Source of the DNA: Callorhinchus milii
Lineage: Eukaryota
Assembly (NCBI RefSeq): GCF_018977255.1
Contig: NW_024704760.1
Coordinates: forward strand, 1,798,001 to 1,862,000
Length of the DNA: 64,000 nucleotides
Direction of reading: 5' to 3'
Shown here in pieces: positions 45,201 to 54,200 of the stretch (positions are counted from its first letter, which is position 1; every line of letters starts with the position of its first letter). The position numbers are program-made.

Positions 45201-48200
45201 CCCTGTAAACTAATGAATAGCGTGGTCCTAAACCAACCATCTGATGGATAGGGTGATCCTAACTGGAGAAACAGTGGGAAAACTGCCTTTCAGTACTTTC
45301 AGTGGTAAATTATGCACTTTTAGCTGATTAAACTCCAATATTTACCACAAACCTCGTCTCTCGCCAACTGGCAGCTAATAATCTCTGGAATTGGATAAAC
45401 AGGGTGCGTCATTCCAGAGACAGAGAGAGAGAGAGAGAGTGCACATTCCATTACTCCCATAGGGACATTTCCATGTGTAGGTGGCATTCTCTCAGCCTGG
45501 TTTGGATACCCTTAAACACGGTGCTGGGTTTCCGCATGTGTCAGACACGTGGCTGCCCCCCCAAAAAACACAAAAGATTCTCACCAGCCATTCTGACATT
45601 AAGGTTTGAAAGTTGCAAAACGAGCCCTCCTCATTGTGTTATATTTCACAAACTTGGCAAAGAGTTGGGCGCTTCTCGAAAAGCGTTCCCACTTCCTGTT
45701 CTCTGCTCCGCAGGTTACTGTACATTGTGCTGGGAGTGCTGGGGCTGCTGCTGATTGCAGGCATTCTGTCTGTACTTTTGCTCAGGAAGCAAAAGCAAAA
45801 GAAAAAGCACGGTAGGTGTCTGGCTCATTAACATTTAATTATTTATATTGACATTTATATTAATTATGTCATTGTTGTCAAGTGGCTGCCCAAAACATAT
45901 ACAGTTAATTCACTTTACAGTATATTCTGTGAAGCGCTTTGAGACGTCTCGAAGACGTGATAAGGCGCTTTATCAAATGCAAGGATTATTATTATTATTA
46001 TTATTAGGAAGTGGATGATTCTTGCCAACATTTCTCCTCTGTTTAAGATCTCCGCCTTCCTGTTTCAGGTAAAAGAACGGTTGGCTCACGTGGAGCAGGG
46101 AATGGTGATGAGGTAAGACGTTTAATATACGCTTTATGACGCCAAGAAAAGTTAAAACTGATGTCCTGGGGTCTGTCTACAAGTGGATGTTAAAGAACCA
46201 CTATTCAAAAAGAGACAGGAGTTTCTCCCCATGTTTTGGCCAACAATCCGCCAGCTTAACTGGTCATTCACGTCCCGGCTGTTTGTGGGACATTGTGTGC
46301 GCAGATTGTGAAGCGAGCGATTTGAGACAGTGACATTATAGACGCGATTTCAATCGCAAAATTATTACTCAGTTCTATGCAAGCGTGACTGAGCATTGCA
46401 TTGACTGGTGAAATTAATTTCAGCTTGAAAGCAATATTACATACGCAACTGTGCAGAAGAGGCAAGCTCGTTCTGTGGCTGGGAGCAGCGAGGGAGCCAC
46501 ATTTACTGGAGATGCCGACATCAATTACGCAGAAGTGCAGTTAGTTCAGAGATCGGCAGAGAGTGGAACACCAGCCACGCTCTCACCTGACACTGGCAAC
46601 ACCACCATTTACAGCAATATCATGGTTCAAAATCCACCGTCGCAGGACAGAAAGGAAAATTGGAATCGGTTGGAATCAACAGAATATGCTACAGTTGCAC
46701 ATTAGCAGCAAGAATAGTGATGGGTATGTGTGTGTGGTGGGGGAGAGGGAATGCAACCCATGATGTGCTATTGATCACAAGTCGCAATTTTCGCTATATT
46801 GATGCATCGCGATGTGGGGCAGGAGTAGCTCACAATGCCTTTATTCCCATTAGCCGTTTTTGGCTCCAGTAAAATGCGCAGGGCTTTATGCGGCAATCCT
46901 TTTATGTTATTTTTGTCGGACGTTCAGAGATGCTGCACTATTTGTGTCCAAACTGTCCACAAAAAAAAACATCACCCTGATGGGATTTCCTCTGTCTGGC
47001 TGAGCAGGTAGACACATGCTGCGGGATTTCCTCTGGCTCCAATTAAACAACTCAGGGGATCCCATGTGTGTGACCGGCATTGCCTAATGTAACGCTGCGC
47101 TGAATGTTTACGCCTTTCGCTGAGTTGAATAAAAGTCTCAACTTCTTGACTTTCAGTGTTCATTTGCCTCAATAGTTGGGGAAGTGGAGCTGTGGGCGGA
47201 GCCACCACAACAAGCTGTCCCTGATATTAACACACACACCGTTCACATGGGAAATCTTAGTGTCACATGTACCGTTGTGCTAGTTCTGAGGATTTAGTTG
47301 ATACACATATGAGCAATGGATGACAAGAAAGAAAGTCAGTCACATACAGGTGCCTCCCTGCACCTAATACTTTCTGGGATTTCCACATGCAGGTGGGATA
47401 CATGATCTCTGTCTAGTTCGAATGCCGTGAAGCACGATGATGGATTTGTGCGTGTGTCAGACACCCGGCTGATTATGGTGATGGGTTTCCGCATGTGTCA
47501 GACATGGGTTGGACACCTGGCTGACACCTGAAAATAAATTGTAGCCGAATATAACCAGCTTGGTTTCATTTTCTGAAATATACAGGAAGAGATCATCTAG
47601 ATCACATGAATGCTCAATAGTCTACTGTGAGCTACTGCCAGTTCCTGAGCTTAACTCTGAAATTGATATCTGAAGACAAGGACAGAGCTAATCATGTTCC
47701 TGCCATTTTCGGTGCCTCCAATTCTCATTCCGTTGGCCTCTGCAAACCAAGTTGATCTACTCTTCACCCCAAAGAAAACATTGGCCATTGTGATTCTTCT
47801 CTATTCTTCTCTCTCAGGTGAGTGACAACCTGAACTGGGTTTTACCACTACTACAGAACCATAGAAACTTACAGCACAGAAGGTATCCATTTGGCTCATT
47901 GTATCTGTGCCGGTTCTTTCAAAGAGCAAACCTTTCAGTCCCAATTAGCTGCCTTTGCCCCCAACCCCCACCCCGTTCCCCATTCTCTGTAGTTTTTGCT
48001 GTGTGTGATTAGCTGCCACTGTTCACCAACAAAATGTTCAGTCAATTCATTTTACAGAATATTCCGTGAAGTGTTTTGAGATGTTTGCCAGGATTATTAT
48101 TATTATTACTCCGGCAGTTTAAACAATTACCGGAACGTCATTTTATTTCTGCTTTTAAAATTGAACTTTTCTTTTGCAGCAAAAATGTGATGTAAAGTGT

Positions 48201-51200: not shown

Positions 51201-54200
51201 GGCTCTTCGTGACAGTCAAGTAAGAGCCTGATAGTAGGGTTTTACTGTTAAATTCATTGTCTGCTTGTTTGTCGGTGTGTCAGTGATGATCACGAGACCT
51301 CCTGTAAGGCCTCGTTAACGGCTGTACTTTATTTCAGTGTTTAAGGGAGTCTGAATTCAATGTCACATACGATGATGTGGAGAAGAGACAGGCCCACTCG
51401 GTGGTCAGGGACAGTGAGGGAGCCTCGCCTTTATTTGGTGGAGATGACAACATCACATACGCAGAAGTACAGTTTGGCCGGGAAACGTTGTTGGAGAGTG
51501 GAGACGAATGTCCAGTTGGCTCGGACACCAACACAACATACGCCACCATCAAGTTTTTCCAGCCTCCAAAGACATTTGATCAGTCGAAATCAGTGACGGA
51601 CACTGTCGAAAATAATGATAATCCTTGCATTTGATACAGCGCCTCATCATGTCGTTGAGATATCCCAAAGCACTTCACAGGATATACTGTAAAATGAATT
51701 GACTGCGTATTCTGTGGGCAAAACTCGGCAGCCAATGCACACAGCAGTGTCCCACAAACAGTCGTGGATTGAGTGACAAAATGATTATTATAGTTTTTGG
51801 AGGGGTTCCTTACTCCCGAAAAGCGATTTGCCAATTAACTGGGTTCCTACCAACTGCTAGGTAAACAGCGTGTGGAGTAAGGAAACTTGCCCTAGGTTTC
51901 GTCCCACCTGGGAATCAAAACTGGGTCCTCTTCCTTGCGAGGCAAGTGCTCTAACCACTACGCTCCAGAACTCCAAATTCCCTTTAACTTAATGCTTGCT
52001 TATCTCTGAGCTCTTTCAGCCTTGTAATCACATGTCACATTAAGGTGTCAGCCTGGCTCAGTGGGGAGCAATCTCACCTTTTCTTGATGCTTTGCTGGAC
52101 ACTTGTCACATTTCCTTTCTCTAGGCCCCAGGTAATACTGCTTGATTTTTTAGCCAAGTCTGTTCAGAATGTGCATAGTCAGAGTGTTATGTAATACAGT
52201 ACTTAACAGTCAACAGTTTGCAAAATTACAGTCGATAATGTGTAAAGATGGTGAATTATATATGTCCTTAAATAAATATAACCATTTGTTCACATTGGGA
52301 ATGTGACCTGTGTTCCATTGGAACTCTCGGGGGTATTAGTTACGACAAATGTAGAAGTTCATAACCGTGATCAGCCGGGTTTCTGACACACAGAAACCCA
52401 TCACCGTGATCAGCCGGGTTTCTAACACACAGAAAACCATCACAGTAAGCAGCCGGGTGTATGATACAAGCATGACCCCATCTCGATGCTTCATATATGC
52501 CATCTGGACATGGATATTCCTGTTAAATCCTGATAATCTATTTCCAGAGAGGCACCTGTATGTGATTGGCTTTCTTTCTTGTCATCGATTGAACACGTTT
52601 GTATTTTTGTGACAACTATGTCCTCAGAACTAACGCAATGGGACACATGACACTAAGATGTGAACGGTGTGTGTGTTAATATCAGGGACAGCTTGTTGTG
52701 GTGGCTCCGCCCACAGCTCCACTTCCCCAACTATTGAGGCAAATGAACACTGAAAGTCAAGAAGTTGAGACTTTTATTTAACTCAGCGAAAGGCGTAAAC
52801 ATTCAGCGCAGCGTTACATTAGGCAATGCCGGTCACACACATGGGATCCCCTGAGTTGTTTAATTGGAGCCAGAGGAAATCCCGCAGCATGTGTCTACCT
52901 GCTCAGCCAGACAGAGGAAATCCCATCAGGGTGATGTTTTTTTTTGTGGACAGTTTGGACACAAATAGTGCAGCATCTCTGGACGTCCGACAAAAATAAC
53001 ATAAAAGGATTGCCGCATAAAGCCCTGCGCATTTTACTGGAGCCAAAAACGGCTAATGGGAATAAAGGCATTGTGAGCTACTCCTGCCCCACATCGCGAT
53101 GCATCAATATAGCGAAAATTGCGACTTGTGATCAATAGCACATCATGGGTTGCATTCCCTCTCCCCCACCACACACACATACCCATCACTATTCTTGCTG
53201 CTAATGTGCAACTGTAGCATATTCTGTTGATTCCAACCGATTCCAATTTTCCTTTCTGTCCTGCGACGGTGGATTTTGAACCATGATATTGCTGTAAATG
53301 GTGTGTTGCCAGTGTCAGGTGAGAGCGTGGCTGGTGTTCCACTCTCTGCCGATCTCTGAACTAACTGCACTTCTGCGTAATTGATGTCGGCATCTCCAGT
53401 AAATGTGGCTCCCTCGCTGCTCCCAGCCACAGAACGAGCTTGCCTCTTCTGCACAGTTGCGTATGTAATATTGCTTTCAAGCTGAAATTAATTTCACCAG
53501 TCAATGCAATGCTCAGTCACGCTTGCATAGAACTGAGTAATAATTTTGCGATTGAAATCGCGTCTATAATGTCACTGTCTCAAATCGCTCGCTTCACAAT
53601 CTGCGCACACAATGTCCCACAAACAGCCGGGACGTGAATGACCAGTTAAGCTGGCGGATTGTTGGCCAAAACATGGGGAGAAACTCCTGTCTCTTTTTGA
53701 ATAGTGGTTCTTTAACATCCACTTGTAGACAGACCCCAGGACATCAGTTTTAACTTTTCTTGGCGTCATAAAGCGTATATTAAACGTCTTACCTCATCAC
53801 CATTCCCTGCTCCACGTGAGCCAACCGTTCTTTTACCTGAAACAGGAAGGCGGAGATCTTAAACAGAGGAGAAATGTTGGCAAGAATCATCCACTTCCTA
53901 ATAATAATAATAATAATAATCCTTGCATTTGATAAAGCGCCTTATCACGTCTTCGAGACGTCTCAAAGCGCTTCACAGAATATACTGTAAAGTGAATTAA
54001 CTGTATATGTTTTGGGCAGCCACTTGACAACAATGACATAATTAATATAAATGTCAATATAAATAATTAAATGTTAATGAGCCAGACACCTACCGTGCTT
54101 TTTCTTTTGCTTTTGCTTCCTGAGCAAAAGTACAGACAGAATGCCTGCAATCAGCAGCAGCCCCAGCACTCCCAGCACAATGTACAGTAACCTGCGGAGC

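What the first reader, a model, noticed from the sequence alone, without database searches (positions are those of the whole stretch)
47694..51634. Copy B: an intact-looking receptor ORF with no Ig domain, or an alternative 3' module for copy A
Seen: leader-like exon, mucin exon, TM exon and two tail exons join in frame (882 nt, 293 aa). I found no Ig-like exon in the 2.1-kb intron 47818-49894. The mucin exon is phase 1, so it could also accept the V or C2 exon of copy A. Inference: either an Ig-less mucin-type inhibitory receptor, or a switchable stalk/TM/tail cassette giving copy A two signalling outputs.
Basis: partly seen in the sequence, partly recalled or inferred. Interest (0 to 1): 0.68.

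Follow-up and report, generated by a model that had tools for sequence, protein, structure and literature searches.

The report
Ig-less mucin-stalk inhibitory receptor paralogue
Between two mirror-image immune-receptor genes lies an intact-looking relative that has lost its binding (Ig) domains but keeps a mucin-like stalk, a membrane anchor and an inhibitory tail; whether it is expressed cannot be tested here.

Summary
Five exons (47694-47817, 49895-50225, 50594-50670, 51167-51219, 51338-51634) total 882 nt (293 codons plus stop). All four introns are GT-AG and no exon has a stop in its model frame. No Ig exon lies in the 2,077-nt first intron by blastn, V and C2 profiles, or Pfam on the longest ORFs.

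Copy B is an old, diverged paralogue of the neighbouring pIgR/CD300-type receptor genes: A (+), A' (-) and C (-). It shares the leader 3' end, stalk acceptor, TM exon, tail exon and the unusual phase pattern 1/2/1/0.

The tail keeps two ITIM-like motifs and one ITSM-like motif. Neutral decay would rarely leave the frame open and these motifs intact (at most 0.2% of 20,000 simulations). A V-exon relic 350 nt upstream of B has 4 stops in 54 codons.

Both A and B tails are inhibitory, so "two signalling outputs" is not supported.

Best reading (0.42): a stand-alone Ig-less mucin-type inhibitory protein. Rivals: a recently decapitated pseudogene, or a 3' cassette for A. Expression is untestable here.

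B lies in the 4.9-kb spacer of an inverted duplication.

The parts
47694..47817 (+). B1, leader-like first exon (41 codons + 1 nt). ATG at 47694, with A at -3. The 3' end and donor (47791-47837) are homologous to A's leader exon; the 5' part and start codon are not.
   Evidence: blastn 47791-47837 vs 41762-41808 is 85% over 47 nt. In the shuffle test 0 of 500 reach the score for the 3' part, but 269 of 500 do for the upstream/5' part. Hydropathy shows two hydrophobic stretches, residues 2-16 and 29-38.
47818..49894 (+). Intron 1 (2,077 nt) with no Ig exon or Ig relic. 645 nt are SINE or other DNA repeated elsewhere in the window.
49895..50225 (+). B2, mucin-like stalk exon (phase 1 in, 2 out). 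66 of its 109 full codons encode Ser, Thr or Pro. It is the positional homologue of A's stalk exon 44968-45091.
   Evidence: The acceptor region 49861-49896 aligns with A's 44935-44969; 0 of 500 shuffles reach the score. A4 has the same odd 1-to-2 phase.
50010..50122 (+). In-frame 15-nt tandem repeat (7.5 copies, 91% matches) encoding SPQTS units. The five SPQTS copies differ only by ACT/ACC, which is synonymous.
50594..50670 (+). B3, transmembrane exon (SPYIALGVLGPLLMLCVLSVLLKKH). It has no charged residue in the membrane span.
   Evidence: tblastn to A's TM exon: 70% over 20 aa, E 1.2e-4. Global alignment: 17 of 25 aa and 55 of 75 nt identical, dN/dS 0.28. blastn 50498-50660 vs 45626-45780.
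51167..51219 (+). B4, short juxtamembrane exon (phase 1 in, 0 out). It is the positional equivalent of A's 46069-46112 but has no sequence similarity to it (2 of 14 aa).
51338..51634 (+). B5, cytoplasmic tail exon with VTYDDV and ITYAEV (ITIM-like) and TTYATI (ITSM-like). These align with the first three of A's four tyrosine motifs.
   Evidence: tblastn 46% over 74 aa, E 3.8e-12. Alignment and dN/dS 0.55. Motif positions and neutral simulation.
51607..51975 (-). Full-length tRNA-derived SINE in inverted orientation. Its (ATT)n tail supplies the last 8 codons and the stop of B5, at the position where A has its fourth motif (TEYATV).
   Evidence: The block matches up to 30 other places in the window. 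The last 8 aa of B5 match other SINE copies at 49204-49181 and 31287-31264. Sequence read.
52271..52276 (+). The only AATAAA/ATTAAA between B's stop and the right-hand arm; a candidate poly(A) signal 637 nt after the stop.
47183..47344 (+). Decayed V-exon relic covering V-profile positions 10-63 of 106. It has 4 in-frame stops in 54 codons and no recognisable 3' half. It lies 350 nt upstream of B1 inside the inverted-repeat arm. The mirror copy at about 52561-52723 (-) carries a 7-nt deletion.
   Evidence: hmmsearch: 17.5 bits on the spacer, 13.9 bits on the whole window. It is the only positive hit apart from the 3 true V exons, and the reversed-window decoy peaks at -1.7. It is 67-68% nt identical to the V exons. 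Mirror copy.
44575..47502 (+). Left arm of the inverted duplication (3' half of gene A plus flank). The tract 45495-47246 is almost identical to the right arm.
52421..55339 (-). Right arm of the inverted duplication (3' half of gene A' plus flank). B occupies the unique 4.9-kb spacer 47503-52420 between the arms.
41707..46705 (+). Gene A, the reference paralogue. Exons: leader 41707-41788, V 42608-42931, C2-like 43463-43783, stalk 44968-45091, TM 45714-45811, 46069-46112, tail 46424-46705. Total 1275 nt, 424 codons plus stop.
   Evidence: Pfam V-set 7.8e-13, Ig_2 3.5e-7. PDB best matches are pIgR and CD300/CMRF35-like molecules.

Best explanation
Copy B is an old, diverged paralogue of the flanking pIgR/CD300-type (skate-MDIR-like) inhibitory receptor genes that has no Ig exons. 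It keeps the family's non-Ig scaffold in the same order and phases: leader, stalk, TM, short exon, tail.

The stalk exon has been expanded by an in-frame 15-nt repeat into a 109-codon Ser/Thr/Pro-rich, mucin-like segment.

The most likely product is a type I membrane protein with an unfolded, probably O-glycosylated ectodomain, an uncharged TM segment, and a tail with two ITIM-like motifs and one ITSM-like motif. Once tyrosine-phosphorylated, this tail would dock SH2-domain phosphatases as CD300a and CD300f do. With no Ig binding site, it would have to be engaged through its glycans (by lectins) or by lateral association with other receptors. That makes it an Ig-less inhibitory co-receptor or adaptor rather than a ligand-specific receptor.

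Shown here: exon structure, open frame, homology to A, absence of Ig exons, composition, motif retention, and a statistical signature of past constraint.

Inferred: use of the ATG at 47694, signal-peptide function of B1, glycosylation, phosphorylation, phosphatase recruitment, and expression itself.
For: - Five exons, 882 nt, canonical splice sites, 0 stops in the model frame.
- Homology to A at the leader 3' end plus donor (85% over 47 nt), the TM exon (17 of 25 aa) and the tail exon (38 of 89 aligned aa; E 3.8e-12), and at the stalk acceptor (0 of 500 shuffles reach the score).
- The unusual phase-2 junction between stalk and TM exons is shared with A.
- A-B divergence is old (dS 0.74 for TM, 0.96 for tail) with dN/dS 0.28 and 0.55.
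- In 20,000 substitution-only neutral simulations, TM plus tail stayed open and kept all three motifs in 0.2% of trials if half the divergence is put on B's lineage, and in none if all of it is.
- Internal control: the neighbouring V relic is 67-68% identical to its parent exons yet has 4 stops in 54 codons and has lost its 3' half.
- The mucin repeat is a multiple of 3, and its copy differences are synonymous in the model frame.
- The complete absence of Ig traces from intron 1, when a relic of similar age is still detectable nearby, points to clean deletion rather than in-situ decay.
- ITIMs recruit SHP-1/SHP-2 in CD300a and CD300f (PMC12153786, passages read). A CD300 member with a functional mucin-like domain exists: nepmucin/CLM-9 (PMC2118321, passages read).
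Against: - There is no transcript or orthologue evidence of any kind. The protein databases were closed, and the open genome collection holds only bacterial and archaeal genomes.
- The start codon and everything upstream have no detectable homology to A (269 of 500 shuffles reach the score).
- The 41-residue N-terminus is atypical for a signal peptide. It has four prolines and no basic residue in the first hydrophobic stretch, and the ancestral hydrophobic core starts only at residue 29. No signal-peptide predictor was available.
- The C-terminus is SINE-derived and the fourth tyrosine motif is gone.
- dN/dS of 0.55 in the tail is only mild constraint, and dS is near saturation.
- The simulation ignores indels and cannot tell present from past selection. 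A gene that lost its Ig exons recently would look the same.
- Receptor clusters of this kind are rich in pseudogenes: 25 pseudogenes beside 28 genes in the main zebrafish NILT region (bioRxiv 10.1101/2022.04.21.489081, passages read).
- Pfam gives no family for any of the 4 B exons scanned. The protein Atlas gives no hit at 0.9 or above for the tail.
Confidence: 0.42

Rival explanations
1. B is a partial gene: a pseudogene in the making. A deletion or unequal crossover removed the V and C2 exons from a once complete receptor gene recently enough that the remaining exons have not yet acquired disabling mutations. It makes no functional product.
For: - Both family-defining Ig exons are missing.
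- The start-codon region is not conserved with A.
- A SINE has replaced the C-terminus and removed one motif.
- Intron 1 carries SINE insertions, 645 of 2,077 nt repeated elsewhere.
- A dead V relic next door shows that gene decay is under way in this locus, and A' carries a 1-nt deletion in its tail exon.
- Pseudogenes are common in related fish receptor clusters (bioRxiv 10.1101/2022.04.21.489081, passages read).
- Evidence of past constraint does not date the loss of the Ig exons.
Against: - No stop, frameshift or splice-site loss in any of 5 exons or 4 introns.
- An in-frame ATG with A at -3 opens the leader frame.
- All three aligned tyrosine motifs are kept despite 58% nt identity in the tail.
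- The mucin expansion is in frame, with only synonymous differences between copies.
Confidence: 0.33
2. B2-B5 act as an alternative 3' cassette for gene A. Transcripts read through A's poly(A) site and splice the V or C2 donor (42931 or 43783) to the B2 acceptor (49895). This gives the same Ig head a long mucin stalk and a different inhibitory tail.
For: - Same strand, directly downstream, with A's stop 3.2 kb from B2.
- The donors of A2 and A3 and the acceptor of B2 are all phase 1.
- The B2 acceptor has a pyrimidine tract and TAG|G.
- This reading explains selection on TM and tail exons without needing the doubtful B1 leader.
- Nepmucin shows that stalk and mucin exons are alternatively spliced in this family (PMC2118321, passages read).
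Against: - Phase 1 is shared by every leader and Ig-exon donor here (B1, A2, A3), so compatibility is not evidence.
- A has its own complete stalk, TM and tail, and AATAAA at 47128 upstream of B1. That signal is conserved in the A' arm.
- Both tails are ITIM/ITSM-type, so no second signalling output would result.
- B1 keeps a perfect CAG|GTGAGT donor and an open frame from an ATG, which a pure 3' cassette would not need.
- A' and C have no such cassette on their strand.
Confidence: 0.12
3. The Ig-less appearance is an artefact. Either B's Ig exons exist but were lost by mis-assembly of this repeat-rich, palindromic region, or the gene model misses exons lying outside the intron examined.
For: - B sits between inverted arms that share a 1.75-kb almost identical tract. 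Assemblers handle this configuration badly.
- A V relic lies just upstream of B1.
Against: - The window has no N.
- Outside the identical tract the arms are only 80-90% alike, and the spacer is unique. This is not a fold-back artefact.
- The whole 64-kb window contains no V or C2 hit other than those of A, A', C and the relic.
Confidence: 0.05

Closest known systems
CD300 / CMRF35-like molecules and pIgR-type V-domain receptors, including the MDIRs of the clearnose skate
   Same: B lies inside a cluster of three such genes (A, A', C). Their V exons match Pfam V-set (7.8e-13). In the PDB search, pIgR scores 1.4e-46 summed over its several domains (best single domain 2.1e-10), and CLM-1/CD300LF scores 1.2e-20. 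They carry the YWCR motif and a Cx7C cysteine pair, seen in the translations; the motifs are as described in PMC3031540 and bioRxiv 10.1101/2022.04.21.489081 (passages read). B shares with A the leader 3' end, stalk acceptor, TM, tail, exon order and phases, and ITIM-type tail motifs as in CD300a/f.
   Different: B has no V (or C2) domain, which is the feature that defines these families. Its stalk is about 2.7 times longer than A's (109 vs 40 full codons) and repeat-built. A, A' and C also differ from mammalian CD300 in having a second, C2-like domain.
Nepmucin (CD300LG / CLM-9)
   Same: A CD300-family member whose stalk is a mucin-like domain encoded by separate, alternatively spliced exons. 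That domain has a function of its own, L-selectin-dependent rolling (PMC2118321, passages read).
   Different: Nepmucin keeps its Ig V domain; the Ig-less form in that paper is an engineered construct. It has no ITIM (PMC12153786, passages read). B has ITIM-like motifs and no Ig.
TIM family (Ig V + mucin + TM + tyrosine-bearing tail)
   Same: A mucin stalk between the head and the membrane, with tyrosine motifs in the tail. A's V exon weakly matches TIM-4 and TIM-1 chains (2.5e-5 and 9.3e-4).
   Different: TIM proteins have the V head. No homology of B exons to TIM proteins was tested or seen.
Ig-less transmembrane adaptors with inhibitory motifs (e.g. SIT) and leukocyte sialomucins (CD43, PSGL-1). 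Recalled, not tested.
   Same: Works-like analogy only. These are type I proteins without a folded ectodomain that signal through tail tyrosines (SIT), or act through a heavily O-glycosylated rod (CD43, PSGL-1).
   Different: No homology. The only hit was a chance-level Pfam match of A's TM exon to SIT (E 0.29). B would combine both features and derives from an IgSF receptor gene.

Membership tests
CD300/CMRF35-like, pIgR-type, MDIR-type receptors | Extracellular V-set Ig domain with the YWCR motif and a second (CxnC) disulfide | tested here: not met
   B has no Ig exon between leader and stalk. None of the 36 blastn HSPs falls on A's Ig exons. The V and C2 profiles give no hit in 47818-49894. 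None of the 10 longest ORFs matches an Ig family in Pfam. Neighbours A, A' and C do meet this feature.
CD300/CMRF35-like, pIgR-type, MDIR-type receptors | Descent: homology of the non-Ig exons to a family member, and location in the cluster | tested here: met
   Leader 3' end 85% over 47 nt. TM 17 of 25 aa. Tail E 3.8e-12. Stalk acceptor: 0 of 500 shuffles reach the score. Same exon order and phases 1/2/1/0.
CD300/CMRF35-like, pIgR-type, MDIR-type receptors | Type I topology with a cleavable signal peptide | tested here: inconclusive
   B1 has two hydrophobic stretches and an ASA and an SLS motif. The start codon is not conserved with A, and no signal-peptide predictor was available.
ITIM-bearing inhibitory receptors (functional class) | At least one (I/V/L/S)xYxx(I/V/L) motif in the cytoplasmic tail and an uncharged TM segment. 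The consensus is recalled. | tested here: met
   VTYDDV and ITYAEV, plus the ITSM-like TTYATI. The TM sequence SPYIALGVLGPLLMLCVLSVLL has no charged residue.
ITIM-bearing inhibitory receptors (functional class) | Tyrosine phosphorylation and recruitment of SHP-1, SHP-2 or SHIP | not testable with these tools
   Needs expression, pervanadate or cross-linking, and co-immunoprecipitation.
Mucin-like (sialomucin) membrane proteins | Ser/Thr/Pro-rich tandem-repeat ectodomain | tested here: met
   66 of 109 residues are S, T or P. A 15-nt unit is repeated 7.5 times at 91% matches, encoding SPQTS.
Mucin-like (sialomucin) membrane proteins | Dense O-glycosylation | not testable with these tools
   No glycosylation predictor or experiment was available.
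Pseudogene or partial gene | Disabling lesion: stop, frameshift or lost splice site | tested here: not met
   0 stops in the model frame of 5 exons. All 4 introns are GT-AG. Phases are consistent.
Pseudogene or partial gene | Loss of exons that are essential in the parent gene | tested here: met
   V and C2 exons are absent. The C-terminal motif has been replaced by a SINE.
Pseudogene or partial gene | No transcription | not testable with these tools
   No transcript data were accessible.

The most novel reading that the evidence does not exclude
B is a shared, orientation-switchable 3' module. It lies in the 4.9-kb spacer between inverted arms that contain a 1.75-kb almost identical tract (2 mismatches and 1 indel). 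Recombination between the arms would therefore flip the spacer and place B, with the same spacing, directly downstream of A' instead of A. One Ig-less mucin-stalk/TM/ITIM cassette could then be spliced onto either of two receptor genes whose V domains differ (77 of 106 aa identical), depending on the inversion state of the locus. Alternatively it could be expressed on its own from B1.
Probability: 0.04. Interest if true: 0.85.

Novelty: new variant of a known kind. Interest (0 to 1): 0.4.

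Why it matters
Catalogues of fish and shark innate immune receptor families are built by searching for Ig domains. The zebrafish and salmon NILT survey, for example, used Ig domains as queries and defined pseudogenes by their Ig exons (bioRxiv 10.1101/2022.04.21.489081, passages read). Ig-less descendants are therefore invisible to such surveys.

If B is expressed, it would show that an IgSF inhibitory receptor can shed its binding head and persist as a mucin-type inhibitory membrane protein. That would link the CD300/pIgR-type receptors to sialomucins and transmembrane adaptors. 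The result is directly testable with one RT-PCR and one transfection.

If B is not expressed, it is an ordinary partial gene in a fast-evolving receptor cluster. The finding is then useful mainly as an annotation caveat.

Tried and rejected
- Six-frame Pfam scan of 47000-49894 by reference failed because the frames contain stops. It was replaced by stop-free ORFs sent to the same tool and by a local profile scan with X at stops.
- Protein Atlas on the B5 tail: best scores were 0.87, 0.84 and 0.77, all below the 0.9 lead threshold, so no family emerged.
- Pfam on B1, B2, B3 and B5: nothing reached a cut-off. B4 (17 aa) is too short to scan.
- Rfam on the whole window: only two tRNA-like hits, taken to be SINE heads. 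Nothing lies in B.
- I considered that the SINE after B's TM exon (50697-50832) and the one after A's (45887-46006) might be orthologous because of their similar position (88% identical). I rejected this. Unique intron DNA at this divergence is barely alignable, so 88% identity means independent young insertions.
- I looked for A-like promoter or 5' leader homology upstream of B1 and found none (269 of 500 shuffles reach the score).
- I looked for the displaced end of the ancestral tail exon beyond the SINE and found none by tblastn at E<1 or by eye.
- Literature searches for an Ig-less, mucin-type ITIM protein or for shark CD300-type genes found no described equivalent.

Full report
**Scope and constraints.** The window has no N. 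I do not take it for human. It is peppered with a tRNA-derived SINE carrying an (ATT)n tail, with up to 32 matches per block in the spacer alone (tRNA-like heads). Its receptor genes also have a V plus C2-like architecture, and their V exon is only distantly similar to mammalian pIgR and CD300 chains. The SINE reminds me of cartilaginous-fish elements, but that is recall and was not tested; the organism was not determined. Frame continuity rests on exon lengths and phases, and on reading the three split codons by eye.

**1. The observation.** The five exons are 47694-47817, 49895-50225, 50594-50670, 51167-51219 and 51338-51634. Their lengths are 124, 331, 77, 53 and 297 nt, which sum to 882 nt.
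- The phases are 0>1, 1>2, 2>1, 1>0 and 0>stop.
- All four introns are GT-AG, and B1's donor is CAG|GTGAGT.
- The model frame has no stop in any exon. Of the 10 other forward frames (two per exon), 7 carry 1-8 stops and 3 are also open.
- The split codons are GGA, AGT and GGT.

**2. Is there an Ig exon in the intron?** No.
- blastn (word 7) of the whole spacer 47503-52420 against the A locus gave 36 HSPs. None falls on A's V (42608-42931) or C2 exon (43463-43783). Three fall on B's leader end, TM and tail, two on the arm boundary, and the rest on repeats.
- Profiles built from the three V and three C2 exons in the window recover all six true exons at 207-220 bits. They give no positive score anywhere in 47818-49894, and a reversed-window decoy peaks at -1.7 bits.
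- An intact Ig exon needs about 80 or more open codons. Only 49270-49725 (+, 151 aa) and 48740-49012 (-, 90 aa) qualify. These and eight other long ORFs gave 0 of 10 Ig matches in Pfam at E up to 10.
- 645 of the intron's 2,077 nt are repeated elsewhere in the window.

**3. What the scan did find.** There is a decayed V-exon relic at 47183-47344 (+), 350 nt upstream of B1.
- It scores 17.5 bits on the spacer and 13.9 bits on the whole window, and is the only positive hit besides the true exons.
- It covers profile positions 10-63 of 106, has 4 in-frame stops in 54 codons, and is 67-68% nt identical to the V exons.
- It cannot serve B. It is dead, truncated and upstream of the leader.
- It is useful as an internal control for what neutral decay looks like in this locus.

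**4. Context.**
- Gene A (+, 41707-46705) has seven exons: leader, V, C2-like, stalk, TM, a short exon and tail. They total 1275 nt, i.e. 424 codons plus stop.
- Its V exon matches Pfam V-set (7.8e-13). In the PDB search, pIgR scores 1.4e-46 summed over its several domains (best single domain 2.1e-10). CLM-1/CD300LF scores 1.2e-20, CD300A 8.6e-16, a chain named "NK cell activating receptor" (1hkf; NKp44 by recall) 8.4e-10, and TREM2 1.4e-7.
- It shows the YWCR motif, FTVT and a Cx7C pair (translation). These features are described for CD300, NILT and pIgR in PMC3031540 and bioRxiv 10.1101/2022.04.21.489081 (passages read).
- MDIRs of the clearnose skate are described as resembling CD300, TREM and pIgR (PMC3031540, passage read). 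I could not compare sequences with them.
- A second complete copy, A', lies inverted at 57702-53204. A third copy, C (-), has V, C2 and stalk at 62939-61196, but no TM or tail was found at E<1.
- A and A' form an inverted duplication with arms 44575-47502 and 55339-52421. Within it, 45495-47246 is almost identical to its mirror, with 2 mismatches and 1 indel, while the rest is 80-90% alike. This is the signature of recent gene conversion.
- B occupies the unique 4.9-kb spacer.

**5. B is a paralogue of A without the Ig part.** Detectable homology covers:
- the last 27 nt of the leader exon plus 20 nt of intron (85% over 47 nt; 0 of 500 shuffles reach the score);
- the stalk-exon acceptor (0 of 500);
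- the TM exon and the intron before it (17 of 25 aa);
- the tail exon (38 of 89 aligned aa, E 3.8e-12).

Exon order and the unusual phase-2 stalk/TM junction are shared. The start codon and upstream region show no homology (269 of 500 shuffles reach the score). B4 is only positionally equivalent to A's short exon (2 of 14 aa).

**6. The parts of B.**
- B2 is 60.6% Ser/Thr/Pro (66 of 109 residues). It contains a 15-nt repeat (7.5 copies, 91% matches) read as SPQTS. The five SPQTS copies differ only by the synonymous ACT/ACC.
- The B3 TM segment is uncharged.
- B5 carries VTYDDV, ITYAEV and TTYATI, aligned with A's ITYATV, INYAEV and TIYSNI. A's fourth motif, TEYATV, has no counterpart. At that point an inverted full-length SINE (51607-51975) supplies B's last 8 codons and stop.
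- The only AATAAA/ATTAAA after the stop is AATAAA at 52271. A has AATAAA at 47128 and ATTAAA at 47042.

**7. Constraint.**
- The A-B distance is old: dS is 0.74 for TM and 0.96 for the tail. dN/dS is 0.28 and 0.55.
- I ran 20,000 substitution-only neutral simulations starting from A's exons. If all divergence is put on B's lineage, TM plus tail stay open in 1.0% of trials, the three motifs survive in 0.03%, and both happen together in none. If half is put on B's lineage, the figures are 6.1%, 2.8% and 0.2%.
- Together with the decayed V relic, this says the TM and tail exons were under purifying selection for much of their history.
- It does not date the loss of the Ig exons or prove present function.

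**8. Mechanism.**
- Most likely (0.42), B encodes a stand-alone type I membrane protein with a mucin-like, presumably O-glycosylated ectodomain and an inhibitory tail. The tail would recruit SH2 phosphatases, as the ITIMs of CD300a and CD300f do (PMC12153786, passages read). The protein would be engaged through glycans or by lateral association rather than through an Ig site.
- Weak points are the non-conserved start, an atypical 41-residue N-terminus, the SINE-derived C-terminus, and the total lack of expression data.
- Rival 1 (0.33) is a recently decapitated partial gene.
But phase 1 is shared by every leader and Ig-exon donor here, A has its own poly(A) signal before B1, and both tails are inhibitory, so no second signalling output would arise.
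- Rival 3 (0.05) is an assembly artefact.

**9. Comparison with known systems.**
- By descent, B belongs to the pIgR/CD300-type cluster, but it fails that family's defining feature, the V domain.
- Nepmucin (CD300LG/CLM-9) is the closest known CD300 member with a functional mucin-like domain. It keeps its Ig and has no ITIM (PMC2118321 and PMC12153786, passages read).
- TIM proteins share the mucin stalk and tyrosine-bearing tail, but have a V head.
- SIT-type adaptors and CD43/PSGL-1-type sialomucins are works-like analogies from recall only.
- My six literature searches found no described Ig-less, mucin-type ITIM protein derived from such a family. The library is open-access only, and supplements were closed.

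**10. Verdict.**
- Novelty: a new variant of a known kind if B is expressed, otherwise an ordinary partial gene.
- Interest is 0.4.
- Boldest reading not excluded: because B lies between recombining inverted arms, inversion of the spacer would put it downstream of A' instead of A. That would make it a shareable cassette (probability about 0.04).

**Unchecked.** Transcripts, orthologues and homologues (databases closed or prokaryote-only), signal-peptide and glycosylation prediction, any fold of the joined protein, paper supplements, and the identity of the organism.

Noticed in passing
window 44575-47502 and 52421-55339; near-identical tract 45495-47246 vs 54410-52660: Genes A and A' form an inverted duplication. 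A 1.75-kb tract covering the TM exon, the short exon, the tail exon, the 3' UTR with AATAAA and the start of the V relic is almost identical (2 mismatches, 1 indel), while flanking arm DNA is 80-90% alike. This looks like recent gene conversion between inverted paralogues; assembly collapse is not excluded.
   Followed up: partly
window 53302 region (A' tail exon 53481-53204), equivalent to A coordinate 46603: A' has a 1-nt deletion (CACCACC to CACACC) in the otherwise identical tail exon. It shifts the frame after the second ITIM, so the two distal tyrosine motifs are lost. This could be a real allele or a sequencing error.
   Followed up: partly
window 62939-60489 (-): Copy C has V, C2 and stalk exons, plus a second stalk-like piece at 60533-60489. 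No TM or tail homologue was found before the leader of A' at 57702. Its leader would lie near or beyond the window end. It may be a secreted form, may use an unrecognised TM exon, or may be truncated.
   Followed up: partly
V exons 42610-42930, 56573-56256, 62939-62622: The Ig exons evolve with dN/dS at or above 1. For V, A vs A' gives 1.15 (36 non-synonymous, 9 synonymous differences). C vs A' gives 2.9 (12.8 vs 1.2). For C2, A vs A' gives 0.85. This suggests diversifying selection on the heads, but the counts are small.
   Followed up: partly
window about 52561-52723 (-): Mirror copy of the V relic in the A' arm. It is identical up to the end of the converted tract, then carries a 7-nt deletion and diverges. 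The relic therefore predates the inverted duplication.
   Followed up: partly
window about 7250-19590 (+) and about 39050 down to about 27270 or below (-): ORFs reading [40 protein letters not shown] (+) and [40 protein letters not shown] (-) appear, with further G-alpha-like exons. They look like a transducin-type and a Gi-type G-protein alpha gene arranged tail to tail. This is recognised from memory only; nothing was sent to any search.
   Followed up: no
window 38900-40050 and 40057-40707: A GC-rich region full of simple repeats surrounds the Gi-like first exon. It is followed by a 650-nt G-rich minisatellite (period 24/32/48, unit GAGGGAGGGAAGGAT...; GC skew 0.42).
   Followed up: no
window 47379-47504, 45467-45555, 54438-54350, 60804-60716, 52344-52458: A short element (about 39-nt unit, containing GGGTTTCCGCATGTGTCAGACA) marks the inner ends of both inverted arms. 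It is tandemly repeated 2.5 times at 52360-52458, and also lies in the intron before the TM exon of A, A' and C. It may be a recombination breakpoint motif.
   Followed up: no
window 57836-57900 (+) and 1034-1101 (+): Two Rfam tRNA matches (47.2 and 31.8 bits). I take them for the tRNA-derived heads of the abundant SINE rather than tRNA genes, but did not check this.
   Followed up: no
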